Shown: positions 17,321-53,091 of the stretch, in pieces
Layout: each line of letters starts with the position of its first letter
How positions within the stretch are numbered: the stretch's first letter is position 1
Virus record (IMG/VR): IMGVR_UViG_3300017779_004709
Location: 1-64,000 of that record
Source of the DNA: a virus
Length of the DNA: 64,000 nucleotides
Strand: one strand, 5' to 3'
Program-made: the position numbers and the translations under genes
Notes under the pieces: generated by a model
What the model was told of the DNA's origin: nothing
Seen by the model: the letters and a program-made list of their open reading frames with translations, nothing else
Databases searched by the model: none

Positions 17321-17325
17321 AGGTT

Positions 17326-21621: not shown

Positions 21622-22315
21622 TGTATTGGATAAGGGATACATAGAATTAGTTGATACTCTTGGTGACGATTTAACACCTGTAAATGCAGCTCGTGTATCA
21701 TTTGGTGGTCGTTCAGAAGAATTTACCAACAAGGATAAAAGATTATCCAAGTTCTTAATCAAACATAAACATTTTAGTCCATTTAGACATCAACACATTA
21801 TGGTGATTATCAAGGCACCTGAATTCGTGATGAGACAATGGTATAAGCATGTTGTTGGGATAGAAACCACATCATCAAGTGCCAGTAAAGACCATGCTTG
21901 GAATGAGATAAGTGGTCGGTATGTTGAGGTTGAAGATTATTATTATCCTGAAGTGTGGAGAAAACAATCAGAGGATAACAAACAGGCTAGTGATGGTGTA
22001 TTGGATGATTTACAACAAAAGAGAATGACATCTTTTTACAACGAGTATATGAGACAAGTCGAGATGACTTACGATAGGATGATTGAAGCTGGAATGGCAA
22101 AAGAACAGGCTCGTATCGTATTACCATTATCACAATACACACAAGTTTGGTGGACAGCATCATTTCAATCGGTAATGAACTTTATTGAATTAAGAGATGA
22201 ACCAACATCACAGGTAGAAATACAAGAATATGCAAGAGCATTAAAAACAATTATGATGGAATCATTTCCTGAAACCACTAAGTTATGGAGTGAAATTTAT
22301 TTGAATGAGGATTAA
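21611..22315 (+). CDS. thyX: Flavin-dependent thymidylate synthase
   Basis: NAARVSF, HFSPF, NEISGRY, AKEQARIVLP, FIELR, EIQEYA. Confidence 0.9.
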   Translation: MKIDVLDKGYIELVDTLGDDLTPVNAARVSFGGRSEEFTNKDKRLSKFLIKHKHFSPFRHQHIMVIIKAPEFVMRQWYKHVVGIETTSSSASKDHAWNEISGRYVEVEDYYYPEVWRKQSEDNKQASDGVLDDLQQKRMTSFYNEYMRQVEMTYDRMIEAGMAKEQARIVLPLSQYTQVWWTASFQSVMNFIELRDEPTSQVEIQEYARALKTIMMESFPETTKLWSEIYLNED

Positions 22316-36632: not shown

Positions 36633-37403
36633 ATGGATATTGAAGCCGTAAGAAAGCGACTAAACCAGTTACAAACCTCAACTACAAGAACAACAAACTT
36701 GTGGAAACCTCAACCAGGAAAGACACAAATCCGTCTTTTACCTTACAAACTAAATCAAGAAGTTCCTTTTATCGAACTATTCTTTCATTATGATTTAGGT
36801 GGAAAGTCTTATCTTTCACCAATCTCATTTGGTAGACCAGATCCGATTGAAGAATTTGCTGAAAAACTAAAGTCAAGTGGAAATCGTGAAGATTGGAGAC
36901 TTGGTAAGAAGTTAGAAGCAAAACTCAGAACTTTTGCACCAGTTTGTGTTCGTGGTGAAGAAAACCAAGGCTCTAAGTTTTGGGGATTTGGTAAAACCGT
37001 ATATCAAGAACTACTATCAATTATAGCAGATCCTGATTATGGTGATATTAGTGATCCAGTTAATGGACGCGATGTAGTGGTTGAATTCCTAACAGCTGAA
37101 GAAACAGGAGCGTCGTTTCTTAAGACTAACATCCGTGTTAAACCAAACCAAACACCAGTTACAGAAGATAAAGCAGTTTTATCTACATTACTTGATGACC
37201 AAAAAGATATCCGTGAGGTATATAATGAGTTAAGTTATGATGAACTTGCAGAAGCTTTACAAGATTGGTTAAACCCAAGTGAAGATGGTGAAGATAAAGG
37301 CTCAGACAATTCCGTACCAGCATCAACAACAAAGAAATTAGAAAGTGCAGTAACAAACACTTCTAATGTTAGTGATGCTTTTGATGACCTGTTTAATAAA
37401 TAG
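36633..37403 (+). CDS. Single-stranded DNA-binding protein (T4 gp32-like)
   Basis: LWKPQPGK..IRLLP, WGFGKTVY, DPVNGRD, acidic tail DAFDDLF. Confidence 0.85.
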   Translation: MDIEAVRKRLNQLQTSTTRTTNLWKPQPGKTQIRLLPYKLNQEVPFIELFFHYDLGGKSYLSPISFGRPDPIEEFAEKLKSSGNREDWRLGKKLEAKLRTFAPVCVRGEENQGSKFWGFGKTVYQELLSIIADPDYGDISDPVNGRDVVVEFLTAEETGASFLKTNIRVKPNQTPVTEDKAVLSTLLDDQKDIREVYNELSYDELAEALQDWLNPSEDGEDKGSDNSVPASTTKKLESAVTNTSNVSDAFDDLFNK

Positions 37404-39575: not shown

Positions 39576-39750
39576 AAAAAAGAAATATTATACCGAAAAG
39601 GAAAAACTCGAAGCCCAACGAAAGTGGCAGATGGATCACTATGAGCGCAATAAAGAGAGGATTCTAAAAAAGGCTAAAGAAAGGTATAGATTGAAAAAAC
39701 TCGAAGAACGAAGAAGGGAAAAAAGGAGAAAAATGTATGGCGACCAGTAA
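39568..39750 (+). CDS. Small basic helical protein
   Basis: MGRKKKY...YERNKERILKKAKERY. Confidence 0.55.
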   Translation: MGRKKKYYTEKEKLEAQRKWQMDHYERNKERILKKAKERYRLKKLEERRREKRRKMYGDQ

Positions 39751-41053
39751 AACAATCAATGGGGATTGTTTAGAGGAACTAAAGAAACTCGATGATAATT
39801 CAATAGATTTACTTTGTACAGATCCACCATACGGATATGGATTTATGGGGAAACATTGGGATACATTTCAAGAAAAACAATCTACCAAATCCCAAACCGT
39901 AGGTTGGATGAGTCCTGGTATGAAGAAATCCACATATGGGATGAAAGAGTTTTTTGTTCCTATTTGGGAAGAAGCATTACGAGTACTAAAACCTGGTTCA
40001 TTTTCATTCGTGATGAGTGCACCAAGAAGTGATGTTCAGATGGTTATGTTACAGACATTACAAGAGGCAGGATTTGATGTTAGTTTCACACCAATCTATT
40101 GGACATATGCTACAGGTTTTCCAAAGGCTATGAATGTTGGTAAGAAAACCGAAAAGGAAAATCTTGAAGGAAGTTACGCTGGATACCAACCAAAACCCGC
40201 TGTAGAAATCGTCATAGTCGCAATGAAACCATTAGACCAAAAAACTTATGTAGGTCAGGCACTTAATAATCAAAAAGGTGTAACTTGGTTAGATGATTGT
40301 AGAATACCATTCGGTGATATGAACGATAAAGAACAATTTGATAAAGACAATGTGGCTGGACAAGTGAACTTCGATGGTAGATACGAAAAGGATAGTGGTA
40401 AAATGTATGAAGGTGGTTGGGATAAACCTATGAGAAAAACCACCAAGAGAAAACCAAGAGAAGAAAATACGGTATTCAAGACAAGTGGATTTAAGAGTGA
40501 AGATAATGATACAGCGGAAGCATCACCATTTGGTAGATTTGCAGCAAACCTATTAATAAGTGATGATATATTAGAAAAAGATTTTAGTAGATTTTATAGT
40601 TTAGATTCGTGGTGGGAAGATAGATTGACTAAATTACCAGATGAAATTAAAAGAACATTTCCATTTTTAGCAGTTCCAAAACCAAGTAAATCAGAAAAGA
40701 ATAATGGGTTGGGTAGATTTGAAAAACAAGAAAAAATATTTAATGGTCAAAGTGATAAACCGAGTAAAGATATGAAAGGTGTGGAACAGAAATTCACAAC
40801 ACAACCATCAGCAAATAATCATCCAACCGTAAAACCAACAACCTTAATGAGCTACTTAATTACACTTGGTAGTCGTAAAGGTGATGTCGTATTAGATCCA
40901 TTCGCAGGTAGTGGAACAACAGCAATTAGTTGTGTGTTTTCAGAGCGAAATTACCTACTTATTGAAAGAGAAAAAGAGTATTATAAAATACTAAAAGCTC
41001 GAATTAAGAAGGCAGAAAATCCTGCAGGAATCGTACAACATGAGTGGTTTTAA
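39737..41053 (+). CDS. DNA amino-methyltransferase (N6A/N4C, beta class)
   Basis: TDPPY before HPTVKP and VLDPFAGSGTT. Confidence 0.9.
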   Translation: MATSKTINGDCLEELKKLDDNSIDLLCTDPPYGYGFMGKHWDTFQEKQSTKSQTVGWMSPGMKKSTYGMKEFFVPIWEEALRVLKPGSFSFVMSAPRSDVQMVMLQTLQEAGFDVSFTPIYWTYATGFPKAMNVGKKTEKENLEGSYAGYQPKPAVEIVIVAMKPLDQKTYVGQALNNQKGVTWLDDCRIPFGDMNDKEQFDKDNVAGQVNFDGRYEKDSGKMYEGGWDKPMRKTTKRKPREENTVFKTSGFKSEDNDTAEASPFGRFAANLLISDDILEKDFSRFYSLDSWWEDRLTKLPDEIKRTFPFLAVPKPSKSEKNNGLGRFEKQEKIFNGQSDKPSKDMKGVEQKFTTQPSANNHPTVKPTTLMSYLITLGSRKGDVVLDPFAGSGTTAISCVFSERNYLLIEREKEYYKILKARIKKAENPAGIVQHEWF

Positions 41054-41055
41054 AA

Positions 41056-42423
41056 ATGAGTGATAAATCAACTTTATCCCAATTCGGTCATGTCTTTCAA
41101 TCAAAGACAATATCATCTTTATTATCAGATAAGAAATTTATACAAACTATATCAGACATACTTGAACCAGAGTATTTTGATAGTGATGCCAACAAATGGA
41201 TATGTAAGGAAATAAGAGATTATTTCTTTGAGTATAAAACTCCACCAACACTTGAAGTGATGAAAGTTAAGATTGATGATATGGAGAATGAGGTTTTACA
41301 AGTTTCAGTAGTGGAGAATCTCAAGGAAGCTTGGAGAAATGTAAAATCAACTGATTTAAAATTTGTTCAAGAACAAACATTAGAGTTTTGTAAAAATCAA
41401 GTTATGAAACAGGCTATTATGAATAGTGTGGATTTGATTGAGGTTGGTCAATATGACCAAATCAAAAAACTCGTGGATAATGCTATGAAGGCTGGTTCTG
41501 ATAGAGATTTAGGACATGATTATATTATTGGAATAGAAGAAAGATTAACTCAATCATCAAGGGTTACGGTAAAAACAGGTTGGGATCCGATAGATGAGGT
41601 TATGGATGGTGGATTGGGTGCAGGAGAACTTGGAGTTGTAGTGGCACCAGCTGGTATTGGTAAGTCTTGGTGTTTACAAACAATTGGTTCTGCAGCAGTT
41701 AAAGAAGGATTGAATGTAGTTCATTATACTTTGGAGTTGAATGAGAATTATGTTGGACTTCGTTATGATACGGTTTTTAGTGGAGTTACCACATCAGATA
41801 TACAATTTTATCAAGAGGATGTCAAGAAAAAAATAGACTCACTCAAGGGAACATTACTGATTAAGTATTTCCCCACAAAAAGTGCTTCAGTTCAAACCTT
41901 AACTTCACATCTAAGTCAGATAGAAATTCAGAATCAAAAACCTGATTTAATATTAGTTGATTATGCAGATATTCTTAAAGGTGTGGGTAGTGAGAAACGG
42001 CATGTATTAGAAAATATCTACGAGGATTTAAGAGGATTAGCAGGTGAATTAGATTGTCCAATATGGACAGCCTCACAGGCAAATCGTAGTTCATTGGAAG
42101 AAGAAGTGATTGACGCTACAAAGGTCGCAGAAGCTTATAGTAAAGTAATGATAGCAGATTTTGTAGTATCGGTTAGTAGAAAAGTAGAGGATAAAATAGC
42201 AAACACAGGTAGGTTTCATGTAATAAAAAATAGATTCGGTCCTGATGGAATTACGTTTCCATCAAGTATTAATACTAATATTGGTAAGATAGATGTTTAT
42301 GAAGCCAATACACAAGATGGTCAAAGTACTCAAGGAAAAATGGATAACAGCCAAGAGTATTTGAGAAAAACTTTAGCAAACAAATATAACAATTCTCAGA
42401 AAGATACCGATGGCTTCGAATAA
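41056..42423 (+). CDS. Replicative DNA helicase (DnaB/T4 gp41-like)
   Basis: APAGIGKS, YTLEL, VDYAD, WTASQANR, KNRFG; ATG 41056 preferred. Confidence 0.92.
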   Translation: MSDKSTLSQFGHVFQSKTISSLLSDKKFIQTISDILEPEYFDSDANKWICKEIRDYFFEYKTPPTLEVMKVKIDDMENEVLQVSVVENLKEAWRNVKSTDLKFVQEQTLEFCKNQVMKQAIMNSVDLIEVGQYDQIKKLVDNAMKAGSDRDLGHDYIIGIEERLTQSSRVTVKTGWDPIDEVMDGGLGAGELGVVVAPAGIGKSWCLQTIGSAAVKEGLNVVHYTLELNENYVGLRYDTVFSGVTTSDIQFYQEDVKKKIDSLKGTLLIKYFPTKSASVQTLTSHLSQIEIQNQKPDLILVDYADILKGVGSEKRHVLENIYEDLRGLAGELDCPIWTASQANRSSLEEEVIDATKVAEAYSKVMIADFVVSVSRKVEDKIANTGRFHVIKNRFGPDGITFPSSINTNIGKIDVYEANTQDGQSTQGKMDNSQEYLRKTLANKYNNSQKDTDGFE

Positions 42424-42478
42424 AAATCTATATATATCATACTTATATGAGGTAAAGTTATGGAAAGCAAATTAAAAA

Positions 42479-44512
42479 ATGGGAGAAATCGTGAAGATGG
42501 AAAAGTTTAAGTTATCAGAAAATTTTATTAATAAGTACAAAAGAAGAAAAGCTCCCTTTGGTTTTAACGGATTAGGTGAGTTAGTTTATATGAGAACCTA
42601 TTCTCGAATCAAAGAGGATGGTAAAAATGAGAGATGGTGGGAAACCGTTCAACGAGTTGTTGAAGGTACTTACACTATGCAAAAAAATTGGATTGATTCA
42701 CATCAATTAGGGTGGAATCCGTGGCAAGCTCAAGCGTCCGCACAGGATATGTATGAGCGAATATTCACTATGAAATTCTTGCCACCCGGCCGAGGTCTTT
42801 GGGCAATGGGAACAGCCGTTACCGAAGAAAAAGGTTTGTACGCCGCCCTAAACAATTGTGCATTTGTATCAACTAAAACACTAAAAGAAGATTACTCGAA
42901 ACCATTTTGTTTCCTTATGGATGCAAGTATGTTAGGAGTGGGTGTTGGATTTGATACAAAGGGTGCTGGAGAAATAGTAGTTAAAGGAGTGGACAAGGAT
43001 AGAGATGTACAGACATTTGAAATACCTGATACTCGTGAGGGTTGGGTAGAATCTTTAAAACTACTATTAGAAGCTTACTTTCATGGTCAAGCGCCAATCG
43101 AGTTTGACTATTCAAAAGTCAGACCAGCTGGAGTACCAATCAAAGGTTTTGGTGGAGTTAGTTCAGGTCCTGAACCATTAGAAGAAGTTCATGTGGATAT
43201 CAAAGGGGTATTAGAAAAGAATAGTGGAGAACCAATTACCGTAACAACGATTGTAGACATAATGAACCTTATTGGTAAATGTGTCGTGGCAGGTAATGTA
43301 AGACGAACAGCAGAGATTGTATTTGGTGATCCTTATGATGAGGAATACTTAGATTTAAAGAATTATAAAGTAAATCCACATCGTGACCAATATGGTTGGA
43401 CTTCTAATAATTCAATATTCGCAGAACTTGGTATGGATTATACGGAAGCATCTGAAAGAATTAATGACAACGGAGAACCAGGATTTGCATGGTTAGAAAA
43501 CATGAGAAAATATTCTCGTATGAAAAATGGTGGAGATGATAAAGACCATAGAGTTATGGGTGGTAATCCTTGTTTGGAACAATCATTAGAAAGTTATGAA
43601 TTATGTTGTTTAGTAGAGACATTTCCAAATAACCACGATTCATTAGAGGACTATCAAAGAACACTTAAATATGCTTATCTGTATGCCAAATCAGTAACAT
43701 TAGGTAAGACACATTGGAGTGATACCAATCGAGTTATGTTGAGAAACAGAAGAATTGGATGTAGTGTGAGTGGAGTTGCTCAGTTTATTACTCAACGAGG
43801 ATTACACGAATTAAAAAATTGGTTAGAGGAAGGATACGACACAATACAAGAATGGGATAAGATGTATTCTGATTGGTTCGCAATTCCAAAGTCAATTAAA
43901 ACCACAAGTGTAAAACCAAGTGGAACGGTTTCGTTATTAGCAGGAGCAACACCAGGATTACACTATCCTGAATCAAGATTCTATATCAGAAGAATTAGGG
44001 TTTCAAAACATTCAGAATTATTAGAACCTATGAAAAAGGCTGGATATAAAGTTGAACCAGCTTTCGGTTCAGAGGACACAACAATGGTTGTTGAAGTTCC
44101 TGTTGATGTGGGAGAAGGAATTAGAACCGTGGGTGAGTTATCCATATGGGAACAATTCAGTTTAGCTGCATTTATGCAAAGACATTGGGCTGATAATCAA
44201 GTTAGTTGTACCGTAACATTCAATCCTGAAACAGAGGGTGAAATGATACCACAAGTATTAAACTATTTCCAATATCATCTAAAAGGTATAAGTTTATTAC
44301 CACGACATGAATTGGGTGCATATAAACAAATGCCATATGAGTCGATTGACGAAAAGGAATATAAGAAGCAAGTTAAAAAACTTGGTAAGTTATCTTTTGG
44401 GGTTATACATAAAGAAGAAGCCAATATAGAAAAGTTTTGTGATGGTGATTTTTGTGATGTAGAAATAATACCCACAACAGGAGATAATGACGACCAAGAA
44501 TATGCAAATTAA
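42479..44512 (+). CDS. nrdJ: Class II (B12-dependent) ribonucleotide reductase
   Basis: FLPPGRGLW, LNNC, GNVRRTAE, GGNPCLEQSL, TSVKPSGTVS; C-terminal CDGDFC. Confidence 0.92.
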   Translation: MGEIVKMEKFKLSENFINKYKRRKAPFGFNGLGELVYMRTYSRIKEDGKNERWWETVQRVVEGTYTMQKNWIDSHQLGWNPWQAQASAQDMYERIFTMKFLPPGRGLWAMGTAVTEEKGLYAALNNCAFVSTKTLKEDYSKPFCFLMDASMLGVGVGFDTKGAGEIVVKGVDKDRDVQTFEIPDTREGWVESLKLLLEAYFHGQAPIEFDYSKVRPAGVPIKGFGGVSSGPEPLEEVHVDIKGVLEKNSGEPITVTTIVDIMNLIGKCVVAGNVRRTAEIVFGDPYDEEYLDLKNYKVNPHRDQYGWTSNNSIFAELGMDYTEASERINDNGEPGFAWLENMRKYSRMKNGGDDKDHRVMGGNPCLEQSLESYELCCLVETFPNNHDSLEDYQRTLKYAYLYAKSVTLGKTHWSDTNRVMLRNRRIGCSVSGVAQFITQRGLHELKNWLEEGYDTIQEWDKMYSDWFAIPKSIKTTSVKPSGTVSLLAGATPGLHYPESRFYIRRIRVSKHSELLEPMKKAGYKVEPAFGSEDTTMVVEVPVDVGEGIRTVGELSIWEQFSLAAFMQRHWADNQVSCTVTFNPETEGEMIPQVLNYFQYHLKGISLLPRHELGAYKQMPYESIDEKEYKKQVKKLGKLSFGVIHKEEANIEKFCDGDFCDVEIIPTTGDNDDQEYAN

Positions 44513-44523
44513 GGAGTAAGGTT

Positions 44524-45510
44524 ATGTATAAATTGGAATATCTATGGTTGGATGGATGTACACCAACTCAAATTAGGTATAAAACAAAAGTTGTAAAAGA
44601 ACCATTAAAAGTACCTGAATGGGGATTCGATCCTATTTGGGGATTTGATGGTAGTTCTACTGAACAGGCAGATGGTGGTAGTTCTGATTGTCAATTAAAA
44701 CCAGTAAGGGTTTATCCAAATCCATTAGAAGAAGATAGTTCTATCGTATTGTGTGAAGTCTATAATGTAGACGATACACCACACAAATCTAATACGAGAA
44801 GATTATTAGAAGAAACTATACCTGATGGTATTGATGAATGGGTTGGCTTTGAACAAGAATACACATTATTTAAAAATGATAGACCATTAGGTTGGCCAGG
44901 ACATGGTGAACCAGCTCCACAAGGAGATTATTATTGTGGTAGAAATATCGGTGAAAATATTTCAAGAGAACATTTAAATGCTTGTATCAAAGCTGGTATT
45001 AGTATTTGTGGAACAAACGCAGAGGTAATGTTAGGACAATGGGAATATCAGATTGGTGCAGGTGGTTCAATCAATATGAGTGATGACTTATGGGTTGCTC
45101 GTTGGTTATTAGAAAGAATCTGTGAGAAGAATGGAGTTTCAGTATCACTACATCCAAAACCAATTGAAGGTGATTGGAATGGTGCAGGATGTCATACCAA
45201 TTTTTCTACGAAATATATGAGAGATGAAGGTGGATATATAGAAATTATAAATGCCTGTGAAAAGTTATCAAAAAATCCACAAGAACATATTGATGTGTAT
45301 GGTCAAGATAATGACAAAAGACTTACAGGAGAACATGAAACTTGTTCTATTGAAGAATTTCGTTATGGTGTTTCAGATAGAGGAGCATCTATCCGTATTC
45401 CGTGGCAGGTGGAAAGGGACGGTAAAGGTTATTTAGAAGATAGACGACCATCTTCAAATTGTGATCCATATGTGGTTTCACAAAAACTAATTCAAACAAT
45501 TTGTAGCTAA
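44524..45510 (+). CDS. glnII: Glutamine synthetase type II
   Basis: EYLWLDG, WGFDGSST, GFEQEY, NAEVMLGQWEYQIG, DWNGAGCHTNFST, RLTGEHET, GYLEDRRP. Confidence 0.93.
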   Translation: MYKLEYLWLDGCTPTQIRYKTKVVKEPLKVPEWGFDPIWGFDGSSTEQADGGSSDCQLKPVRVYPNPLEEDSSIVLCEVYNVDDTPHKSNTRRLLEETIPDGIDEWVGFEQEYTLFKNDRPLGWPGHGEPAPQGDYYCGRNIGENISREHLNACIKAGISICGTNAEVMLGQWEYQIGAGGSINMSDDLWVARWLLERICEKNGVSVSLHPKPIEGDWNGAGCHTNFSTKYMRDEGGYIEIINACEKLSKNPQEHIDVYGQDNDKRLTGEHETCSIEEFRYGVSDRGASIRIPWQVERDGKGYLEDRRPSSNCDPYVVSQKLIQTICS

Positions 45511-45569
45511 AAAGTATTAGGAATTATCAAATATTATTAGTAAGATCAAGTATAAATTAAGAGGTTATA

Positions 45570-48077
45570 TTGTACCAAAACATATATTACGAAAGTCGTA
45601 AGAATAAAGTACATATATGGGATGACAAGAGTGGTCATGTAATCGTGCCTTACAAAAGGTATGCTTATATAAAAGACGGATACGGAACTCATGTTTCCCT
45701 ATATGGTGATAGGTTAAAAAAGACATATAAGTGGGATAAATCCGTAGAAGGATTACACGAAAGTGATATTAATCCTGAAACGAGAACTCTCATTGATATG
45801 TATACTAATAGTGATGAACCATCAGTAGGTCATCGTATTATGATAATCGATATAGAGGTAGAAGTAACCGAAGGTTTCCCAAGTCCACAAAAGGCAGAAA
45901 ACAAGATTACTTCCATCGCGATTCACGATAGTGAAACCGACCATTATTGGTGTTTTGTTCTTGATGAACAAGAAAAACTGATACCAGATGAATGGGGTAA
46001 AAATGTAACCGTAGAAACTTTCAAAAAAGAGTACGAGTTACTACAAAGGTTTTACGCTAAATATTTAGAAATGCGACCAACCATTATAACAGGTTGGAAC
46101 ATAGATGGTTTTGATATTCCCTACCTTTACAATCGTTCAGCTCAGATAGTCGGTAAGAATGTTGCAGATTGTCTTTCTCCAATATCCAATGTCTATTGGA
46201 ATAAATACAGAGAACGATTTATGATAGCAGGTGTGAGTTGCTTAGATTACTTAGCCCTATATAAAAACTTTACATTTAGTTCAAAACCATCATATCGATT
46301 GGACGATATCGGTGCCTCAGAGGTTGGAACAAATAAAATTTCATACGAAGGAACACTAAATGACCTATACGAGAATCACTTAAATGACTTTGTGAAATAT
46401 AACATTCACGATGTTAGGATTGTTAAGAAGTTAGATGATAAGTTAGACTTTATTGATGTCGCTCGAGGGATTTGTCATGTAGGTCATGTTCCATATGAAG
46501 ATATACAATATGACTCTCGATTTTTGGAAGGGGCTATATTGGTGTACCTGAAAAAACTCGGAGTTGTAGCTCCAAACAAGACACCACGAGATGATGTGAA
46601 GAAAGATGGTAAATTCACAGGAGCTTATGTACAGGACCCACAAAAAGGAAAACACGATTGGGTTTATGATTTGGATATTACGAGTATGTATCCGTCAATC
46701 ATTATGAGTTTAAATATATCACCTGAAACTAAGATTGGTAAAATCGAAGGGTGGAGTCCAAAGGAGTTTATTGCTGGTAGAAATAAAACCTACTCTATTA
46801 TTATGAATGGTAAGAAAAAAGGACAATTTACCGAAACAGAATTAAAAGATTTCTTTGATAAGAATCAAGTATCTGTATCTAACAATGGTATCATATACAG
46901 AACAGATAAACAAGGATTAATTCCAACTCTATTATCAGAGTGGTTTGATAAACGAAAAGAGTTTAGAAAACTAGCAAAGAAGTTCGGTGATGCTGGAGAT
47001 GACGACCAATATGGATACTTCAATAGACGACAACACATTCAGAAGATTGTGTTGAACTCCATGTATGGTGTTTTGGGTTTACCTGTATTTAGGTTTTACG
47101 ATTTGGATAACGCTGAAGCCACCACAAAGACAGGCCAAGAGTTAATTAAATTCACAAAGAAAATTGGTAATCATTTCTACAATAAAGAGTTGGGAACAGA
47201 AAAGGACTATTGTATCTATATTGATACAGATTCAGTTTTCTATTCAGCAGTTCCTTTAATTGAACATAGATTTCCAAATCAAGAGTTAAGTGATGTTATG
47301 AAAACTCAACGGATTAATGAGATAGCTACAGAAGTACAGAAATATCTAAACGATAGTTATCATTACTTCGCCAAGAAGTTCTGTAATCTTGATGTTCATA
47401 GATTTGAGATTAAACAAGAAATTGTAGCTAAGGCTGGTTTGTTCATTGTGAAGAAAAGATATGGTATGAAGATTATATCGGATAATGGTGTTCAAGTTAA
47501 TAAAACTATGGTAAAGGGTTTGGATACGGTTCGTAGTAACTTCGCCCCATTGTTCAGAAAACTATTGTCTGATGTGTTGGATGATATTCTGGCAAGTGTT
47601 CCAAAGGATAAAATAGATCATAGGATAACAAGATTTAAGAAGAATATGAAATACAACGAACTCGATGATATCTCATCACCAACAGGTGTCAAGGGAATAT
47701 GGAAGTATATGGAAAAGAAGGACAAGGAAAATAGTTCAGTATTTACCACATTCAAAAAAGGGTGTCCTGTTCATGTAAAAGCAGCAATAGCATATAATGA
47801 TTTGGTTAGGTATTTTAAACAAGATAAGAAATATCAATTCATCAATAATGGTGATAAGATTCGTTGGGTGTATTTGAAGAACAATACATTAGGATTAAAT
47901 GCAGTTGCTTACAAAGGACACGAGGACCCACCTGAAATAATGGAATTTATAAATAAAAATATTAACCATGATAAGATATATGGACAGGCACTAACCAAAA
48001 AGTTACAAATGTTCTATGATTGTTTGGATTGGGGAAAGCCAGTAGATGAAGAACAGAGTATCGAAAGGTTTTTTTAG
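45570..48077 (+). CDS. polB: Family B DNA polymerase
   Basis: Exo DIEV, GWNIDGFDIPY, YNIHDV; Pol DITSMYPS, KIVLNSMYG, YIDTDS, KKRY. Confidence 0.95.
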   Translation: MYQNIYYESRKNKVHIWDDKSGHVIVPYKRYAYIKDGYGTHVSLYGDRLKKTYKWDKSVEGLHESDINPETRTLIDMYTNSDEPSVGHRIMIIDIEVEVTEGFPSPQKAENKITSIAIHDSETDHYWCFVLDEQEKLIPDEWGKNVTVETFKKEYELLQRFYAKYLEMRPTIITGWNIDGFDIPYLYNRSAQIVGKNVADCLSPISNVYWNKYRERFMIAGVSCLDYLALYKNFTFSSKPSYRLDDIGASEVGTNKISYEGTLNDLYENHLNDFVKYNIHDVRIVKKLDDKLDFIDVARGICHVGHVPYEDIQYDSRFLEGAILVYLKKLGVVAPNKTPRDDVKKDGKFTGAYVQDPQKGKHDWVYDLDITSMYPSIIMSLNISPETKIGKIEGWSPKEFIAGRNKTYSIIMNGKKKGQFTETELKDFFDKNQVSVSNNGIIYRTDKQGLIPTLLSEWFDKRKEFRKLAKKFGDAGDDDQYGYFNRRQHIQKIVLNSMYGVLGLPVFRFYDLDNAEATTKTGQELIKFTKKIGNHFYNKELGTEKDYCIYIDTDSVFYSAVPLIEHRFPNQELSDVMKTQRINEIATEVQKYLNDSYHYFAKKFCNLDVHRFEIKQEIVAKAGLFIVKKRYGMKIISDNGVQVNKTMVKGLDTVRSNFAPLFRKLLSDVLDDILASVPKDKIDHRITRFKKNMKYNELDDISSPTGVKGIWKYMEKKDKENSSVFTTFKKGCPVHVKAAIAYNDLVRYFKQDKKYQFINNGDKIRWVYLKNNTLGLNAVAYKGHEDPPEIMEFINKNINHDKIYGQALTKKLQMFYDCLDWGKPVDEEQSIERFF

Positions 48078-48787
48078 TGAACACGGAAGAAATAAAAAAA
48101 TTAGTAAAAACTCATGTGGATATTACTGATAAAGAATTAGATGATTTAGATAGGGAAACTAATTTCGAGGGGGTTTTAACTAAAAGAAAACCTAAGACAA
48201 TTATTACCAAATACAATACCACAGATAATATTAATGAATACGGATATAGGTCAGATTCATTTGATGATGATACAGATGGTTTTATGTTTTTGGGATGTTC
48301 GCTAACAGCAGGAGTTGGATTAGAGGAACACGAAACATGGCCTTGGATGGTGGGAAAACATTTTGATGTGAGGGTTTGGAATCTATCCCAAAATGGTAGG
48401 GGAGATGATTTATGTTTTATGAATGCTGTTAGGTGGATTCCAAAATTAAAACCTAAAGTTGTTAGTGTTCTACTTCCAACAGCAGGTAGATTTCAATTCT
48501 TCGACTATGATAACGATAAATTATCTAACGAATTTTATATATACAATTTACCCAAGAAACCTAAGTTCCCTTGGCTGTATAATTCTAAGCATTTATATCT
48601 ATCAGTATTAAAAAATGTCATGGGAATTAAATTGATTTGTGATGAATATAATATACCTTTTATAGTAGAATCTTCTACTGAAATTTTGGATTGGCCAGAT
48701 AAAGCAAGAGATGACTCACATCCAGGCCCTAAGTGGCAAAAAATAGTATCTAATTTATATATAGAAAGTATAGAAAGGTTCTTCTAA
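48077..48787 (+). CDS. SGNH/GDSL-like hydrolase or acyltransferase
   Basis: FLGCSLTAG, NLSQNG, ARDDSHPG. Confidence 0.7.
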   Translation: MNTEEIKKLVKTHVDITDKELDDLDRETNFEGVLTKRKPKTIITKYNTTDNINEYGYRSDSFDDDTDGFMFLGCSLTAGVGLEEHETWPWMVGKHFDVRVWNLSQNGRGDDLCFMNAVRWIPKLKPKVVSVLLPTAGRFQFFDYDNDKLSNEFYIYNLPKKPKFPWLYNSKHLYLSVLKNVMGIKLICDEYNIPFIVESSTEILDWPDKARDDSHPGPKWQKIVSNLYIESIERFF

Positions 48788-48788
48788 A

Positions 48789-49583
48789 ATGTTTAAACTT
48801 GCCTATTTAAATGGTTGTAGTTTTGTGGATGGATTTAAAGGACTTGATGATTCAATTGTTAAAACAGAACTTGATATTAAAAAAATTATTAATAATGCTT
48901 CACATGGATGTGGTAATGATAAAATCAGAAGGACAACGATAGATTTTCTTTTAAAGAATAAAAATTTGTGGGAAGATTTATTGGTTGTGATTGGTTGGAC
49001 TCAATTTACACGATTTGAATTGTGGGATGAGTTTAAAAACAAGAATGGGAAAGAATCATCAAGTTTTATACAGTTGAATTCTAAATTAGTACACAATAAA
49101 AAAAAGAGTACTGATTTTTTAGAACGAATGGATTCATCTCAAGCTTTTCCTTCTCCAGAAAAGTCACTAATTAGATTTGGTCTGAAAAAAGATATTCATG
49201 GTAATGATATGTCAGATAAGTTTTGGAAGTGGTTTATGGTAAGACATTACAATGTTAGAGACAGATATGATAAATATTTAGATAACATTTTGTATTTACA
49301 GATGTTTTTAAAGACTAATAATATTAAGTATGTGATGTTTGATAGTTTATGGAGTATAAACGAAACTAAGTTATCAGATAAGTACAAATTTAAATATAAT
49401 GAAATAGATTTTGATAGATGGGTGTGGGGTGATGATAAAACGAGTTGGTCAGAATACCTAACTGATATAGATCCATCTCATACCGAAACAAGAATCAGTA
49501 ATACTGATGACCATCCAAACGAAAATGGTCAAAAAATATGGCTTAAAATTATATCTAATAAGGTAAAAGAATTATATGAATAA
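48789..49583 (+). CDS. SGNH/GDSL-like protein
   Basis: NGCSF, GCGNDKI, IGWT, DDHPNENG. Confidence 0.7.
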   Translation: MFKLAYLNGCSFVDGFKGLDDSIVKTELDIKKIINNASHGCGNDKIRRTTIDFLLKNKNLWEDLLVVIGWTQFTRFELWDEFKNKNGKESSSFIQLNSKLVHNKKKSTDFLERMDSSQAFPSPEKSLIRFGLKKDIHGNDMSDKFWKWFMVRHYNVRDRYDKYLDNILYLQMFLKTNNIKYVMFDSLWSINETKLSDKYKFKYNEIDFDRWVWGDDKTSWSEYLTDIDPSHTETRISNTDDHPNENGQKIWLKIISNKVKELYE

Positions 49584-49605
49584 TAATGTCAAAGATTTTT
49601 TTGAT

Positions 49606-49632
49606 TTTGAGAAATAAGTTTGATATATATGT
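49606..49632 (+). promoter_or_regulatory. Bipartite promoter-like motif TTTGAGA-N10-ATATATATGT
   Basis: Same spacing as 4372, 4807 and 35913. Confidence 0.5.
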
Positions 49633-49664
49633 ATATATCATATTAACATAAGGAGAAATGATAA

Positions 49665-50384
49665 ATGAATAAATACAAATTAACTCGATTCATTGACAAG
49701 TACCATTTAGGTGGTAATGTTAATGCAGTAGTTATCAACAGCAAGAGTGATAAATTATCTACTCGATTCATTACTGGTGATAAAGCACTACTCGGAGAAT
49801 TGAAGATGAATAATTGGACATTCGAGGATTCCGAATTGGGAGTTTATGATACAGAACAACTTAGTAGATTACTTGGTGTTTTGGATGATGATGTAACCCT
49901 TAATTTGACTCAGGCGGGTGATAAGGCAATCGCCGTTGAGATTTCTGATGCACTATCCAAAGTCAACTTTATGTTGTCGGATAAATCAGTTATCAATCAA
50001 CCACCGCCACTAAAACAACTTCCTGAATTTCAGGTAGAGATTAAAGTGGATTCCAATTTCATTAATAGATTCATTAGTGGTAAATCTGCATTACCAGATA
50101 CAGATACCTTTACGGTAATAGCTGATGATGATGGAGTGAAACTTGTAATAGGTTATTCTTCAATCAACACAAACAGAGTTACAATTCCTGTTGAGACTAC
50201 AGCAACATCTAAAATAGAAAATGTATCTTTTAACGCAAATCTATTTAAGGATGTTCTTACAGCAAATAAAGAATGTGAAAGTGCAACACTATATGTTAGT
50301 GAACAAGGGTTATCAAAAATCAACTTCAAGGTTGATGATTATGATGCTACTTACTTTCTTGTAGCCGTTCAAGACGTTGATTGA
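49665..50384 (+). CDS. DNA sliding clamp (gp45/PCNA-like)
   Basis: 239 aa with a two-domain beta/alpha pattern, C-terminal ATYFLVA, near PolB. Confidence 0.7.
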   Translation: MNKYKLTRFIDKYHLGGNVNAVVINSKSDKLSTRFITGDKALLGELKMNNWTFEDSELGVYDTEQLSRLLGVLDDDVTLNLTQAGDKAIAVEISDALSKVNFMLSDKSVINQPPPLKQLPEFQVEIKVDSNFINRFISGKSALPDTDTFTVIADDDGVKLVIGYSSINTNRVTIPVETTATSKIENVSFNANLFKDVLTANKECESATLYVSEQGLSKINFKVDDYDATYFLVAVQDVD

Positions 50385-51351
50385 TTTTGACAACTTCCCA
50401 ACTTTTAGTGAAGAACATTTTAATACTTGGATAAACGAATTAACACCAATAGAGGAACATAATGGTTACTTGGTTAAACGAGACGACCTTTTCAATCTTG
50501 GTGGTGTTAGTGGTGGAAAAGTTAGACAATGTTCTAAACTTGTCTATGATAATTTAGACCATATACTCAACGAGTGTAATGGTGGAATACTTACAGCTGC
50601 TGGAATACCATCTCCACAGAGTTGTATAACTTCGGCAGTTGCAAAGTATTTTGGGTTGAAATGTTTGGTTACAATACCACATTATCCCGACCATATCAAA
50701 GATAGTTATAGAGTAAATGCTTCACTATCTCAAAAGTTTGGTGCCAAAATGTATGGGGTGGGAAACCCTAATATATCGGGTCCCGAACTTGATGCCAAAA
50801 AACTCGTTGGTGAAACAGGTTATTTCCAAATAAAATTTGGAATGAATGGAAAACAAGTGATGGAAACCATTGCCCAACAAGTGAAAAATATTCCTGACTG
50901 TGTAGAGACTGTCGTGGGAATAGCTGGGAGTGGATTATCTATGCTAGGTGTAGCATTAGGGTGTAAGTTGTATAACAAAAATGTTAAAGTTATACATCCT
51001 GTAGCATTAAGTGGATATGTGTATAAAAATAAGAAAACTTGGTATGATCGTCTCCTTCCCAAAGACCAATTTGACGGAGAATTTCATGTGGTACAATCTG
51101 ATTATCCATATCAACACAAACTTAAATTAGATGAATCATTACCGCTTGACCAAACATACGAAGCTAAGGCTTGGGATTGGATGACCAAAAATCTAAAACC
51201 ATCTGAAAAGGTGTTGTTTTGGGATGTTGGTATTAAAGAATATGACTTGGATTACATTGAACCTATCAAGTGGCACAAATCAGAATATGAAATGATTATC
51301 GATAGAGAACTGAGAAGGAAACATGAGCAAGTCAAACACGACTTTTTCTAA
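50377..51351 (+). CDS. PLP-dependent fold-II enzyme (ACC deaminase / D-cysteine desulfhydrase-like)
   Basis: VKRDD...GGKVR (PLP lysine), AGSGLS, LDQTYEAKAW, LFWDVG. Confidence 0.85.
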   Translation: MIDFDNFPTFSEEHFNTWINELTPIEEHNGYLVKRDDLFNLGGVSGGKVRQCSKLVYDNLDHILNECNGGILTAAGIPSPQSCITSAVAKYFGLKCLVTIPHYPDHIKDSYRVNASLSQKFGAKMYGVGNPNISGPELDAKKLVGETGYFQIKFGMNGKQVMETIAQQVKNIPDCVETVVGIAGSGLSMLGVALGCKLYNKNVKVIHPVALSGYVYKNKKTWYDRLLPKDQFDGEFHVVQSDYPYQHKLKLDESLPLDQTYEAKAWDWMTKNLKPSEKVLFWDVGIKEYDLDYIEPIKWHKSEYEMIIDRELRRKHEQVKHDFF

Positions 51352-51871
51352 GGCCTGGTTAGAAAAGAAAATAATGTGTGGGTTATGTAACTTTGGTTGC
51401 TGTAACCACAATTCTTTTCATGTAGAGATTACTGAGGAAGAACAAGAAAAATACAAAAAACAATTTGGACTTGATTTAGAATTGGAATGGCCACAAGATG
51501 GTTGTTGTGATTTACTAAGTAAGGATGGAACGGGTTGTAGTTTGGGTGATGAACGACCTGTATTCTGTAAAACATATCCATTAGTGGAGAACAAAACAGG
51601 TCGTGTGGTGATTAATAATTGGGCATATTTACATTGTCCAAAGCCTGAGAATTACGAGTTAGATAGAGAAGTGGATGGTAAGTATCATTACAAGTTGAAA
51701 AAGAAACATAAGAACAAACGAGATGAATTGATATTAGATGATAAGATAGAAAATGTAGTTAAACAAATATGGTTACAATCCAAAGAGGCACTTGTCGAAA
51801 CATACGGACAAGAGTTTTACGAAAAGATAAAAATAGAAATGAAACAAACAATTAAACACGGATTCTTTTAA
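51323..51871 (+). CDS. YkgJ/CxxCxxCC family putative Fe-S or Zn protein
   Basis: CGLCNFGCC, CDLL, CSLGDERPVFCKTYP. Confidence 0.75.
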   Translation: MSKSNTTFSKAWLEKKIMCGLCNFGCCNHNSFHVEITEEEQEKYKKQFGLDLELEWPQDGCCDLLSKDGTGCSLGDERPVFCKTYPLVENKTGRVVINNWAYLHCPKPENYELDREVDGKYHYKLKKKHKNKRDELILDDKIENVVKQIWLQSKEALVETYGQEFYEKIKIEMKQTIKHGFF

Positions 51872-53091
51872 TGTATATAGATTACTTTGATAAATTTTAC
51901 AATATGAAACCCTATCTCGAAATTGATGAAAAGGATTGGGAGTACATTAAAGAAACATTTGATAAAGATGATGTTAAGGAAAGTCTTGCAAAAGTAGCAA
52001 TGACATACCCACTTCCATATCCTGATTTAACCGAAAAGAGAGCATACAAGGATTTCCAAAAACTCAAGGGTATGAAATGGAATGAAATTATGGTAGAGGG
52101 TGAGTGGTATGCTAGAGAAGGAACAGAATATACCTATAATTTAAATTATGATAAAAAACAATTATATTTTAGAAGATTAAATGCTGGTAATGAGGCAAGT
52201 AACTACTTTCAGATAGAAAATCGTTGGTCAGTTGATGGTTCGGTTTCACCAGGTCCTAAACGAACTTGGGGAAGTCATAAGTTTATGACCACACTTATGG
52301 GAAGTGCTTACTCGTTGAAGATGCCCAAGATAAACAAGAACATATTGAGAACTATGATTGGGTTGAGAAAATATATTTGTTCTCAGTTCAAACCAAATGT
52401 GGCAAAGATAATTTACGATATGTTTAAGTCAGAAAACATATTAGACTTTTCGATGGGGTGGGGTGATAGGTTGGCTGGATTTTACGCAAGTGAATATGGT
52501 AAACACTATGTTGGTTTAGATCCAAGAGGAGAGAATCACCCTATCTACAAGGAACAATCTGAATTCTATGAAAAACATTTGGGATTCTTTGAACACGATA
52601 GAAAGTCTGAGTTTCATTGTAGTCCAGCAGAAGATTTTGACTTCGCCCCGTACAACGAACATTTTGACATGGTATTTACAAGTCCACCATACTTTAGCGT
52701 GGAGCGTTATAGTTACGATGATACACAAAGTTGGGTTAGATACAAAGATATAAACGATTGGAATAAGGATTTTCTACAATCGACCTTGGGTAACTTATGG
52801 GGAAGTATAAAAAAAGGTGGATATTTATTAGTGAATATATCAGATGTCTATACAAATTCAAAATGGTCAACCGAAAGAGGTTGGTTGGAGATTTGTAATC
52901 CTATGAATGACTACTTATCCAAGATGGGAGAGTATCAAGGTTGTATTGGAATGGAGATGGCCAAACGACCTAATAGTGGTGGAGCTGGAACGGCTAAAAG
53001 TTACGAGGGTTCTGTGTGGACGGAGAAATCATTAGAGAACAAACAGGATAAGAAGTTTGGAGAACCAATATGGGTATGGAAAAAGTTGTAA
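51871..53091 (+). CDS. DNA amino-methyltransferase-like protein
   Basis: SAM motif LDFSMGWGDRL before FTSPPYF. Confidence 0.8.
   Translation: MYIDYFDKFYNMKPYLEIDEKDWEYIKETFDKDDVKESLAKVAMTYPLPYPDLTEKRAYKDFQKLKGMKWNEIMVEGEWYAREGTEYTYNLNYDKKQLYFRRLNAGNEASNYFQIENRWSVDGSVSPGPKRTWGSHKFMTTLMGSAYSLKMPKINKNILRTMIGLRKYICSQFKPNVAKIIYDMFKSENILDFSMGWGDRLAGFYASEYGKHYVGLDPRGENHPIYKEQSEFYEKHLGFFEHDRKSEFHCSPAEDFDFAPYNEHFDMVFTSPPYFSVERYSYDDTQSWVRYKDINDWNKDFLQSTLGNLWGSIKKGGYLLVNISDVYTNSKWSTERGWLEICNPMNDYLSKMGEYQGCIGMEMAKRPNSGGAGTAKSYEGSVWTEKSLENKQDKKFGEPIWVWKKL

What the first reader, a model, noticed from the sequence alone, without database searches (positions are those of the whole stretch)
39737..53091. 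Clamp-binding-like C-terminal tails shared by PolB and four putative modification enzymes: a replisome-tethered modification system?
Seen in sequence: PolB ends EQSIERFF* and the next gene (SGNH-like) ends ESIERFF*. The PLP enzyme ends EQVKHDFF*, the YkgJ-like protein ends QTIKHGFF* and the beta-class MTase ends GIVQHEWF*. The last three define an h-[KQ]-H-x-[FW]-F* terminus in otherwise unrelated folds, and all five genes lie in the replication region around the sliding-clamp gene. Established: T4 gp43, gp33 and gp55 dock on gp45 through C-terminal SLDFLF-like peptides, and PCNA partners use PIP boxes ending in two aromatics. Inference: these enzymes ride the phage clamp, or another shared hub, to modify nascent DNA co-replicationally.
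Basis: partly seen in the sequence, partly recalled or inferred. Interest (0 to 1): 0.8.

Follow-up and report, generated by a model that had tools for sequence, protein, structure and literature searches.

The report
Clamp-docking tails on phage DNA-modifying enzymes
In this uncultured T4-like marine phage, a DNA methylase, a PLP enzyme and a Cys-rich protein end in a conserved aromatic tail (H-x-F-F) that in related phages matches the DNA polymerase's own tail. The tail therefore probably hooks these enzymes to the phage's PCNA-like sliding clamp, but binding has not been measured.

Summary
Five of 105 predicted proteins of the 91-kb contig end in [FW]F (0.3 expected, P about 1e-5), and all five lie within 13 kb around a PCNA-fold clamp gene.

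The tails are conserved short motifs. PolB keeps ..[IL]-E-R-F-F in every relative. The PLP enzyme, YkgJ-like protein and methylase keep ..H-x-[FW]-F behind variable linkers, with synonymous codon variation. Cellular PLP homologues lack the whole C-terminal extension.

The strongest evidence is co-variation. In two near-complete related phages the PLP enzyme's tail copies that phage's own PolB tail (MEQFFV/MEQFFI; IERFFV/MEKFFK, with the methylase IDRFMK). In another clade, an SPPY methylase-like protein ends TLEGLFG beside PolB's TLEALFG.

A clamp-trimer/PLP-tail model gave only weak support (ipSAE 0.56, best control 0.00).

One correction: the ESIERFF on the gene after PolB is not independent. 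A two-gene cassette was inserted into PolB's 3' end, and a 14-nt remnant of the old terminus remains at 49591-49604.

In this clade the enzymes' H-x-F-F tail differs from PolB's ERFF tail, so a second hub is not excluded.

This scan has reported similar clamp-docking tails in at least eight other phage genomes. I rate this a new variant of a known kind.

The parts
39737..41053 (+). Beta-class DNA methyltransferase (DPPY at residue 29, FAGSG at 389, large insert). The 18 residues beyond the Pfam domain end in ..GIVQHEWF* (class B tail, codons 41027-41050).
   Evidence: PF01555 E = 5.6e-28 over residues 23-420, and phrog_67. All 120 best homologues (55-100% identity) keep an aromatic tail, 116 of them of the type [LI]-[VI]-x-[HN]-x-[WF]-[FW].
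45570..48077 (+). T4 gp43-like family B DNA polymerase. The tail ..EQSIERFF* (class A, codons 48051-48074) lies 22 residues beyond the Pfam domain.
   Evidence: PF00136, PF03104 and phrog_262 at E = 8e-179. The tail [ST]-[IL]-E-R-F-F is invariant in relatives of 65-99% identity, and reads TL[ED][RK]FF at 56-59% identity. It occupies the same position as T4 gp43's ..SLDFLFG*.
48077..48787 (+). First gene of an inserted cassette: a 236-aa protein, possibly an SGNH/GDSL-like hydrolase. It ends ..YIESIERFF*, a duplicated PolB terminus (codons 48764-48784).
   Evidence: No Pfam or PHROG hit. Homologues of 39-46% identity sit elsewhere in relatives and end ..YIEEINKCI, with no FF, and one has a weak GDSL hit. 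The tail DNA differs from PolB's at three sites, all synonymous.
48789..49583 (+). Second gene of the cassette, a DUF6071 protein with no aromatic tail.
   Evidence: PF19547 E = 1.3e-10. It is absent between PolB and the clamp gene in all relatives.
49591..49604 (+). Non-coding 14-nt remnant (AAAGATTTTTTTGA) of the ancestral PolB 3' end (..RFF-stop), which marks the right junction of the cassette.
   Evidence: It is identical to the last 14 nt of PolB in L002, and the next 100 nt have no mismatch to L002's PolB-clamp spacer. The homology stops exactly at its left edge.
49665..50384 (+). Phage sliding clamp (two-domain PCNA/gp45-type protomer), the proposed docking hub.
   Evidence: phrog_223 E = 4e-12. 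The AF2 model (pLDDT 72) matches PCNA chains at Foldseek E about 1e-12 and TM 0.65-0.74. 2681 relatives are found in the representative library.
50377..51351 (+). Fold-type II PLP enzyme (Trp-synthase-beta / threonine deaminase / D-Cys desulfhydrase fold). A phage-specific C-terminal extension ends ..KHDFF* (class B tail, codons 51325-51348).
   Evidence: PALP and phrog_3650/7093; fold matches. H-x-F-F is invariant behind a variable linker. Residues 317-324 are coil with pLDDT below 50. Cellular homologues lack the extension. In G005 and G006 the tail copies that phage's PolB tail.
51323..51871 (+). Cys-rich YkgJ-like (CxxCxxCC-type) protein ending ..QTIKHGFF* (class B tail, codons 51845-51868).
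   Evidence: PF03692 at 22.6 bits (cut-off 23). Sources name homologues 'Fe-S-cluster containing protein'. The tail TI[KND]H[EG]FF is kept in 26 loci. A 52%-identical homologue ends ..PLEEFFA.
51871..53091 (+). SPPY methyltransferase-like protein that lacks the FxGxG SAM motif. It has no aromatic tail here, but its homologue in the L036 clade carries that phage's PolB-type tail.
   Evidence: SPPY at residue 271 and no FxGxG. PF01555 positions 2-107 only. L036:15719-16960 ends ..ATLEGLFG* directly after PolB's ..TLEALFG*.

Best explanation
The aromatic C-termini are short docking peptides for the phage's own PCNA/gp45-type sliding clamp. PolB's ..[IL]-E-R-F-F is its processivity tail, the counterpart of T4 gp43's ..SLDFLFG. 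The DNA methyltransferase, the PLP enzyme and the YkgJ-like Cys-rich protein carry a sister motif, h-x-H-x-[FW]-F, at the end of a flexible extension. This tail would recruit them to clamps loaded on, or left behind on, newly replicated DNA, so that a multi-step DNA modification is coupled to replication. A trimeric clamp could carry the polymerase and modifying enzymes together. The ESIERFF tail on the gene after PolB has a different origin: a two-gene cassette was inserted into the 3' end of PolB and the terminus was duplicated onto it. Shown here: the motifs, their conservation, their co-variation with PolB tails in other lineages, the clamp fold, and the insertion scar. Inferred: binding to the clamp, DNA as the substrate of the PLP and YkgJ-like enzymes, and co-replicational timing.
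For: 1. Enrichment. 5 of 105 ORFs end in [FW]F (P = 1.5e-5) and 3 end in H-x-[FW]-F (P = 5e-7), all clustered around the clamp gene.

2. Short-motif behaviour. In the PLP enzyme, H-x-F-F is invariant while the preceding 5-8 residues vary. The invariant His and Phe codons vary synonymously (CAC/CAT, TTT/TTC) in the PLP, YkgJ-like and MTase families. The motif tolerates 1-2 residues after it (..HNFFNK..HDFWG), as T4 gp43 and gp55 do. The PLP model ends in a low-confidence coil at residues 317-324.

3. Phage-specific extension. PLP homologues of 30-38% identity, including cellular ones, stop about 35 residues earlier and have no aromatic tail.

4. Co-variation with the polymerase. In G006 (complete, 179.7 kb) PolB ends ..VDMEQFFI and the PLP enzyme ..DFMEQFFV. 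In G005 (98% complete) PolB ends ..DMEKFFK, the PLP enzyme ..SIERFFV and the phrog_67 MTase ..FIDRFMK. In L036 PolB ends ..TLEALFG and the next gene, an SPPY MTase-like protein, ends ..ATLEGLFG, with synonymous DNA differences. In L042 PolB ends ..IEDSFL and an MTase fragment ends ..IDHSFL.

5. The hub exists. The clamp gene folds as PCNA.

6. Precedent. T4 gp43 and gp55 end ..SLDFLFG and ..SLDFLYEAND. gp33 and gp55 bind gp45 through the LDFL motif, and Dnmt1 binds PCNA (PMC9690074).

7. Complex model. For the clamp trimer plus PLP residues 295-324, ipSAE was 0.56 and the best of 3 controls 0.00, giving a verdict of weak support. The mark was reached by 58 of 80 solved complexes and 2 of 110 mismatched pairs. 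At 0.60 or under it was reached by only 7 of those 80 solved complexes and by both mismatches that passed. The runs agree in at least 94% of contacts and the partner's pLDDT is at least 62. Many PCNA-peptide complexes have been solved, so the pass may reflect likeness only.
Against: Binding has not been measured. The only complex model is weak and reports no interface. In the window's own clade the enzymes' tail (H at -4, hydrophobic residue at -6) never converges on PolB's tail ([IL] at -5, E-R at -4/-3), even in relatives with PolB only 56-59% identical. That fits a separate site or a separate hub as well as it fits the clamp. Neither tail is a canonical PIP box. No gp55 or gp33 homologue, which would calibrate the clamp motif, was found in the contig. 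Ackermannviridae, whose homologous PLP decarboxylase is proven to act on DNA, show no tail shared with their PolB. The published T4 alpha-glucosyltransferase-gp45 interaction was not reproduced in a 2025 preprint (10.64898/2025.12.06.692756), although that study used C-terminal His tags.
Confidence: 0.6

Rival explanations
1. In this clade the H-x-[FW]-F tails dock on a shared hub other than the clamp. Candidates are the adjacent SPPY MTase-like protein, the glutamine-synthetase-like enzyme, the clamp loader or SSB. The three enzymes would then form a modification complex that is not clamp-borne, and only PolB's ERFF tail would bind the clamp.
For: The two motif classes stay distinct in every relative of the clade, even when PolB is only 56-59% identical. 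The invariant His has no counterpart in PolB's tail. The three class B genes belong to one conserved neighbourhood with the SPPY and GS-like genes.
Against: The same PLP, MTase and YkgJ-like families carry PolB-type tails (h-E-x-F-F-x) in sister lineages. In L042 a His-containing tail (IDHSFL) sits beside PolB's IEDSFL. The clamp-trimer model with the PLP tail scored 0.56 against 0.00 for controls, which is weak support. No alternative hub was tested.
Confidence: 0.2
2. The ESIERFF tail on the gene after PolB (48077-48787) is a passive by-product of cassette insertion into the PolB 3' end and has no docking function.
For: The cassette is absent in all relatives. The ancestral 14-nt PolB end survives as a scar at 49591-49604. 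Homologues of the gene elsewhere end ..YIEEINKCI. The ATAGAAAG microhomology (YIE / SIE) sits at the junction.
Against: The three sense-codon differences from both PolB's current tail and the relatives' consensus are all synonymous, and the stop is in place. A different insert at the same site in L022 also ends in an aromatic tail..KINKFFEF. With only 7 codons, this is weak evidence for selection.
Confidence: 0.4
3. The tails are a different C-terminal signal, for example a degron for timed proteolysis (the contig encodes two ClpP-like proteases) or a packaging or localisation tag.
For: C-terminal hydrophobic residues can act as degrons (general knowledge). ClpP-like genes lie at genome 67500-68102 and 83454-84050.
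Against: The replicative polymerase carries the same kind of tail at the position where T4 and RB69 polymerases bind the clamp. The motif tolerates extra residues after it, so a free carboxylate is not needed. Only DNA-related enzymes carry it.
Confidence: 0.07
4. The resemblance is chance or compositional bias in an AT-rich genome (Phe = TTT/TTC).
For: The genome is 30-35% GC. A baseplate protein of G006 ends ..LDQFFVVN by chance.
Against: The expected count is 0.3 against 5 observed. The motif is conserved in more than 100 homologues with synonymous variation, and it co-varies with PolB tails in independent lineages.
Confidence: 0.03

Closest known systems
C-terminal sliding-clamp-binding peptides of T4/RB69 (gp43 ..SLDFLFG, gp55 ..SLDFLYEAND, gp33) docking on gp45
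   Same: A short hydrophobic/aromatic peptide sits at or near the C-terminus of the replicative PolB and of unrelated proteins of the same phage. The phage encodes its own trimeric PCNA-type clamp. The L036 clade's TLEALFG/TLEGLFG tails are close in sequence to T4's SLDFLFG.
   Different: The clients here are DNA-modifying or putative modifying enzymes (MTase, PLP enzyme, Cys-rich protein), not transcription factors. The motif sequence differs (..ERFF and ..HxFF). Two motif classes coexist in one phage. Binding is untested.
PIP-box clients of PCNA, especially Dnmt1-PCNA (replication-coupled maintenance methylation)
   Same: A DNA methyltransferase is recruited to a PCNA-fold clamp by a short motif that ends in two aromatic residues, which couples modification to replication (PMC9690074). 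The clamp model's best structural matches are PCNA-peptide complexes.
   Different: The spacing is not canonical. PolB has Q-x-I-x-x-F-F and class B has its hydrophobic residue at -6 and His at -4. The motif is strictly C-terminal, and the setting is a phage rather than a eukaryote.
T4 alpha-glucosyltransferase-gp45 interaction (Sommer et al. 2004, as cited in bioRxiv 10.64898/2025.12.06.692756)
   Same: The idea is the same: a phage DNA-modifying enzyme rides the phage clamp and modifies DNA while it is being replicated.
   Different: That interaction is contested, because the 2025 preprint found no co-purification using C-terminally His-tagged enzymes. T4 alpha-GT ends ..FKEQFDIITK with no polymerase-like tail. 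Here the evidence is a shared, co-varying tail.
PLP-dependent decarboxylases of thymidine hypermodification (ViI gp226, M6 gp52; PMC8989533)
   Same: The window's PLP enzyme is a 25-31% identical homologue of the Ackermannviridae gp226-type enzymes, which act on bases in polymeric DNA and are modelled on the Trp-synthase-beta fold.
   Different: The contig holds no 5-hmdU DNA kinase or aGPT-Pplase, and its thymidylate synthase is ThyX rather than a hydroxymethylase. The Ackermannviridae enzyme shares no tail with its PolB. That paper does not mention a clamp or replisome.

Membership tests
T4-type sliding-clamp-binding motif clients | A short hydrophobic/aromatic peptide at or within a few residues of the C-terminus, outside the catalytic domain | tested here: met
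   The tails lie 18-22 residues beyond the Pfam domains of the MTase and PolB. The PLP tail is a low-confidence coil after the last helix. A variable linker precedes the invariant H-x-F-F.
T4-type sliding-clamp-binding motif clients | The phage encodes its own gp45/PCNA-type clamp | tested here: met
   phrog_223. The model matches PCNA chains at E about 1e-12 and TM 0.65-0.74.
T4-type sliding-clamp-binding motif clients | The motif is shared with the phage's own replicative polymerase tail | tested here: inconclusive
   Met for the gene after PolB, but by duplication. Met for the PLP enzyme and MTase in G005, G006, L036 and L042. In the window's own clade only the terminal aromatic pair is shared, HxFF against ERFF.
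T4-type sliding-clamp-binding motif clients | Physical binding of the peptide to the clamp's hydrophobic pocket | not testable with these tools
   Only a model is available. ipSAE was 0.56 against a best control of 0.00, giving weak support. The mark was reached by 58 of 80 solved complexes and 2 of 110 mismatched pairs, but at 0.60 or under by only 7 of the 80 and by both mismatches. Run agreement is at least 94% and the partner's pLDDT at least 62. No interface is reported.
Canonical PIP box (Q-x-x-[LIM]-x-x-[FY]-[FY]) | Q at position 1, an aliphatic residue at position 4 and aromatic residues at positions 7-8, with this spacing | tested here: not met
   PolB has Q-S-I-E-R-F-F, so the Q is one residue too close. 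The class B tails V-K-H-D-F-F, I-K-H-G-F-F and V-Q-H-E-W-F have their aliphatic residue at -6, not -5.
Thymidine hypermodification pathway (5-hmdU route) | dUMP hydroxymethylase, 5-hmdU DNA kinase and aGPT-Pplase amino-acid:DNA transferase together with the PLP decarboxylase | tested here: not met
   Only the PLP homology was found. The thymidylate synthase is ThyX (PF02511) and the neighbouring kinase is APS-kinase-like. No aGPT-Pplase was detected among the ORFs scanned. The contig is incomplete.
Beta-class N6/N4 DNA methyltransferase (PF01555) | A DPPY-type catalytic motif and an FxGxG SAM-binding motif | tested here: met
   The MTase at 39737-41053 has DPPY-29 and FAGSG-389 and matches PF01555 at E = 5.6e-28. 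The protein at 51871-53091 has SPPY-271 but no FxGxG, so it is MTase-like only.

The most novel reading that the evidence does not exclude
This phage clade uses two separate C-terminal 'address codes'. ..[IL]-E-R-F-F is reserved for the polymerase, and ..h-x-H-x-[FW]-F is used by a set of DNA-modifying enzymes (MTase, PLP enzyme, Cys-rich/Fe-S protein). The two codes would bind different subsites of the clamp, or the clamp and a second hub. The replisome would then carry a multi-enzyme hypermodification line without competing with the polymerase. The tail would also flag the PLP and YkgJ-like proteins as enzymes that act on polymeric DNA in an undescribed base-modification pathway.
Probability: 0.25. 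Interest if true: 0.75.

Novelty: new variant of a known kind. Interest (0 to 1): 0.6.

Why it matters
If the tails bind the clamp, a phage's C-terminal 'polymerase-like' peptide becomes a sequence-only marker for enzymes that work on newly replicated DNA. That would assign a DNA substrate to otherwise uninterpretable enzymes, here a fold-type II PLP enzyme and a YkgJ-like Cys-rich protein. It would give a mechanism for how multi-step DNA hypermodification keeps pace with replication. It would also bear on the contested question of whether T4-type modification enzymes ride gp45. A practical point follows: C-terminal tags would destroy such a motif. The scar at 49591-49604 also shows how such a tail can spread to a new gene, by cassette insertion into the polymerase's 3' end.

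Tried and rejected
- phmmer of the clamp and of the PolB C-terminal 200 residues against PDB sequences gave nothing useful. The clamp fold was shown by structure prediction instead.
- No gp55 or gp33 homologue was found in the 91-kb contig by PHROG scans, nor in four related records using T4 gp55 as the query (an empty answer is uninformative). The clamp motif could therefore not be calibrated on the late transcription factors.
- No close relative of the gene at 48077-48787 was found in IMG/VR.
- Ackermannviridae test: in LIMEstone1 the PLP enzyme ends ..VNGFTPS and PolB ends ..MMQKKKG, with no shared tail. Tail sharing is therefore not universal for this PLP family.
- In G006, the protein at 17230-17760 ends ..LDQFFVVN and looked like a further client, but it is a baseplate wedge subunit, so it is a chance look-alike.
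- In L043/L060 an MTase tail variant ..ASKFFDFG does not match that phage's PolB tail ..TLDRFF, so co-variation is not perfect.
- The 5-hmdU thymidine-hypermodification reading was considered and not supported, because the thymidylate synthase is ThyX and the neighbouring kinase is APS-kinase-like.
- A canonical PIP box was considered and rejected on spacing.

Full report
**What is there**

The window is part of a 91,360-nt viral contig with all genes on the + strand. It carries T4-like structural and replication genes:
- a gp32-like SSB, UvsX and a gp47-like nuclease;
- a DnaB-type helicase, a class II RNR, a glutamine-synthetase-like protein and a gp43-like PolB;
- a clamp (phrog_223) and, beyond the window, a gp44-like clamp loader.

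The closest described phage is Microcystis phage Mel-JY01, with 46% PolB identity.

In the whole contig, 5 of 105 non-nested ORFs end in [FW]F (0.30 expected, P = 1.5e-5). Three end in H-x-[FW]-F (0.014 expected, P = 5e-7), and no other ORF does.

**The hub**

phmmer against PDB sequences found nothing for the clamp. An AlphaFold2 model built from 18 relatives (pLDDT 72) matches PCNA chains, many of them in PIP-peptide complexes, at Foldseek E about 1e-12 and TM 0.65-0.74. The phage therefore has its own two-domain PCNA/gp45-type clamp.

**Conservation**

Seventy-odd related IMG/VR loci were fetched.
- PolB keeps [ST]-[IL]-E-R-F-F at 65-99% identity, and T-L-[ED]-[RK]-F-F at 56-59%.
- The PLP enzyme keeps an invariant H-x-F-F behind a linker that varies freely (..RRKHEQVK....RRKSKVTE....ENRIKPKE..).
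- The YkgJ-like protein keeps TI[KND]H[EG]FF.
- All 120 best MTase homologues (55-100% identity) end in an aromatic tail. In 116 it is of the type [LI]-[VI]-x-[HN]-x-[WF]-[FW], sometimes with one extra residue.
- The invariant His and Phe codons vary synonymously in all three families.
- In the PLP model the last eight residues are a low-confidence coil after the final helix.

This is how a selected short linear motif behaves.

**Phage-specific extension and co-variation with the polymerase**

A graded series of PLP homologues was the most informative result.
- At 53% identity or more, nearly all homologues end ..H-x-F-[FW].
- At 46-52% identity the tail switches to other aromatic types (..SIERFFV, ..SLEKFFI, ..MDQFFI, ..SLFA).
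- At 30-38% identity, including cellular homologues, the protein stops about 35 residues earlier with no such tail.

I then read the polymerase tails in the genomes that hold the switched variants.
- In G006 (complete, with terminal repeats, 179.7 kb), PolB ends ..VDMEQFFI and the PLP enzyme ..DFMEQFFV.
- In G005 (98% complete, 175.7 kb), PolB ends ..DMEKFFK, the PLP enzyme ..SIERFFV and the phrog_67 MTase ..FIDRFMK. In the scan of its 305 ORFs no other ORF ends in this polymerase-type tail.
- In the L036 clade, PolB ends ..TLEALFG. The gene directly downstream is a 413-aa SPPY/N6_N4 MTase-like homologue of window gene 51871-53091, and it ends ..ATLEGLFG, with synonymous DNA differences. This tail is close to T4 gp43's ..SLDFLFG, read from the T4 record.
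- In L042, PolB ends ..IEDSFL and an MTase fragment ends ..IDHSFL.
- A 52%-identical YkgJ-like homologue ends ..PLEEFFA.

Three unrelated enzyme families thus change their tails between lineages. In several lineages the tail is the polymerase's own. That is the signature of a shared docking site, and for a T4-type PolB that site is the clamp (PMC9690074).

**The complex model**

It gave ipSAE 0.58, 0.54 and 0.56 against 0.00 for all three controls, and the verdict was weak support.
- The mark was reached by 58 of 80 solved complexes and 2 of 110 mismatched pairs.
- At 0.60 or under it was reached by only 7 of those 80 solved complexes, and by both mismatches that passed.
- The runs agree in at least 94% of contacts, and the partner's pLDDT is at least 62.
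- No interface is given.
- PCNA-peptide complexes are abundant among solved structures, so the pass may only show likeness.

**Correction: the gene after PolB**

In every relative, PolB is followed after about 60 nt by the clamp gene. The window instead has two extra genes, 48077-48787 and a DUF6071 gene at 48789-49583.

Immediately after them, at 49591-49604, lies AAAGATTTTTTTGA. This is identical to the last 14 nt of PolB in L002 (..RFF-stop). The next 100 nt have no mismatch to L002's PolB-clamp spacer, and the homology stops exactly at the left edge of the 14-mer. The cassette was therefore inserted into the PolB 3' end, and the terminus now exists three times.

Homologues of the first cassette gene sit elsewhere in relatives and end ..YIEEINKCI. 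The window copy reads ..YIE-SIERFF, and the junction lies in the repeated ATAGAAAG. The shared ESIERFF is therefore inherited, not convergent.

Whether it is used is open. Its three sense-codon differences from PolB's tail are all synonymous, and another insert at the same site in L022 ends ..KINKFFEF. The sample is tiny.

**What remains open**

In the window's own clade the enzymes' tail (His at -4, aliphatic residue at -6) never converges on PolB's ([IL] at -5, E-R), even over large distances. This could mean two affinity classes or subsites on one clamp, or a second hub. I could not test other hubs.

Neither tail is a canonical PIP box.

That the PLP and YkgJ-like proteins modify DNA is an inference from three things: the tail, the neighbourhood (MTase, SPPY MTase-like and GS-like genes), and 25-31% identity to the Ackermannviridae gp226-type PLP enzymes, which decarboxylate amino-acid-modified bases in DNA (PMC8989533). 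The 5-hmdU route itself is not supported here, because the thymidylate synthase is ThyX and the neighbouring kinase is APS-kinase-like. LIMEstone1's PLP enzyme and PolB share no tail.

**Literature and earlier notes**

Known precedents are clamp-binding C-terminal peptides (T4 gp43, gp33, gp55) and Dnmt1-PCNA (PMC9690074). A T4 alpha-glucosyltransferase-gp45 interaction was proposed but not reproduced in a 2025 preprint that used C-terminal His tags. My searches found no paper describing clamp-type tails on phage MTases or on PLP or Fe-S enzymes, and the hypermodification paper mentions neither a clamp nor a replisome.

This scan's own earlier, unpublished AI notes report similar 'clamp-docking tails' in at least eight other phage genomes. 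I did not test those.

**Verdict**

This is a new variant of a known kind. Confidence is about 0.6 that the class B tails dock on the clamp, and higher, about 0.85, that PolB's tail does.

Noticed in passing
window 42394-42423 (DnaB-type helicase 41044-42423): The helicase keeps a conserved C-terminal ..K-D-x-x-G-F-E* behind a variable linker in all relatives (..TDFG in one clade). This may be a third docking peptide for a different partner such as the primase, loader or polymerase, reminiscent of the acidic/aromatic tails of T7 gp4 and gp2.5.
   Followed up: partly
window 36633-37403 and 32526-33683: The gp32-like SSB ends ..SDAFDDLFNK, and an AAA+ ATPase (phrog_249/168-like) ends ..DDLFNEEEIENANL. 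They share an acidic D-D-L-F-N element, possibly another shared interaction peptide.
   Followed up: no
window 49605-49664: The spacer before the clamp gene holds TATATATGTATATA (49624-49637). This occurs only once in the window but is conserved after the PolB stop in most relatives, so it is a candidate promoter or regulatory element of the clamp operon.
   Followed up: partly
L006-L010 and L025/L030 (relatives): In these relatives PolB is split into two ORFs (about 516-524 aa and 262-283 aa) with intervening sequence. RNR is also split, and DnaB is split in L006-L010. This suggests inteins, introns or homing-endonuclease inserts in replication genes. The C-terminal PolB piece keeps ..[IL]ERFF.
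   Followed up: no
L022:8687-9238: A different 183-aa gene with no family match is inserted between PolB and the clamp gene and ends ..KINKFFEF. The PolB 3' end looks like a hot spot for cassette insertion.
   Followed up: partly
window 20868-21621: An APS-kinase-like P-loop kinase appears split into two overlapping ORFs (20868-21302 and 21277-21621) that match the N- and C-terminal halves of phrog_10255. This could be a frameshift, programmed or an error. It lies next to a ThyX gene (21611-22315).
   Followed up: no
window 51871-53091 and genome 82359-83453: These are SPPY methyltransferase-like proteins that match only the N-terminal half of PF01555 and lack FxGxG. They end in a conserved ..EPIW[VI]WKK. 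Some relatives have tandem paralogues. They may be a non-methylating DNA-base-modifying enzyme family.
   Followed up: partly
genome 67500-68102 and 83454-84050 (beyond the window): Two ClpP-like / prohead-protease-like paralogues (phrog_94, phrog_1827) lie in one contig, one next to a radical-SAM gene (68102-69175).
   Followed up: no
L036:7387-7929: A type IV pilin-like gene (PF00114 and the N_methyl motif) sits directly after the clamp gene of a T4-like marine phage.
   Followed up: no
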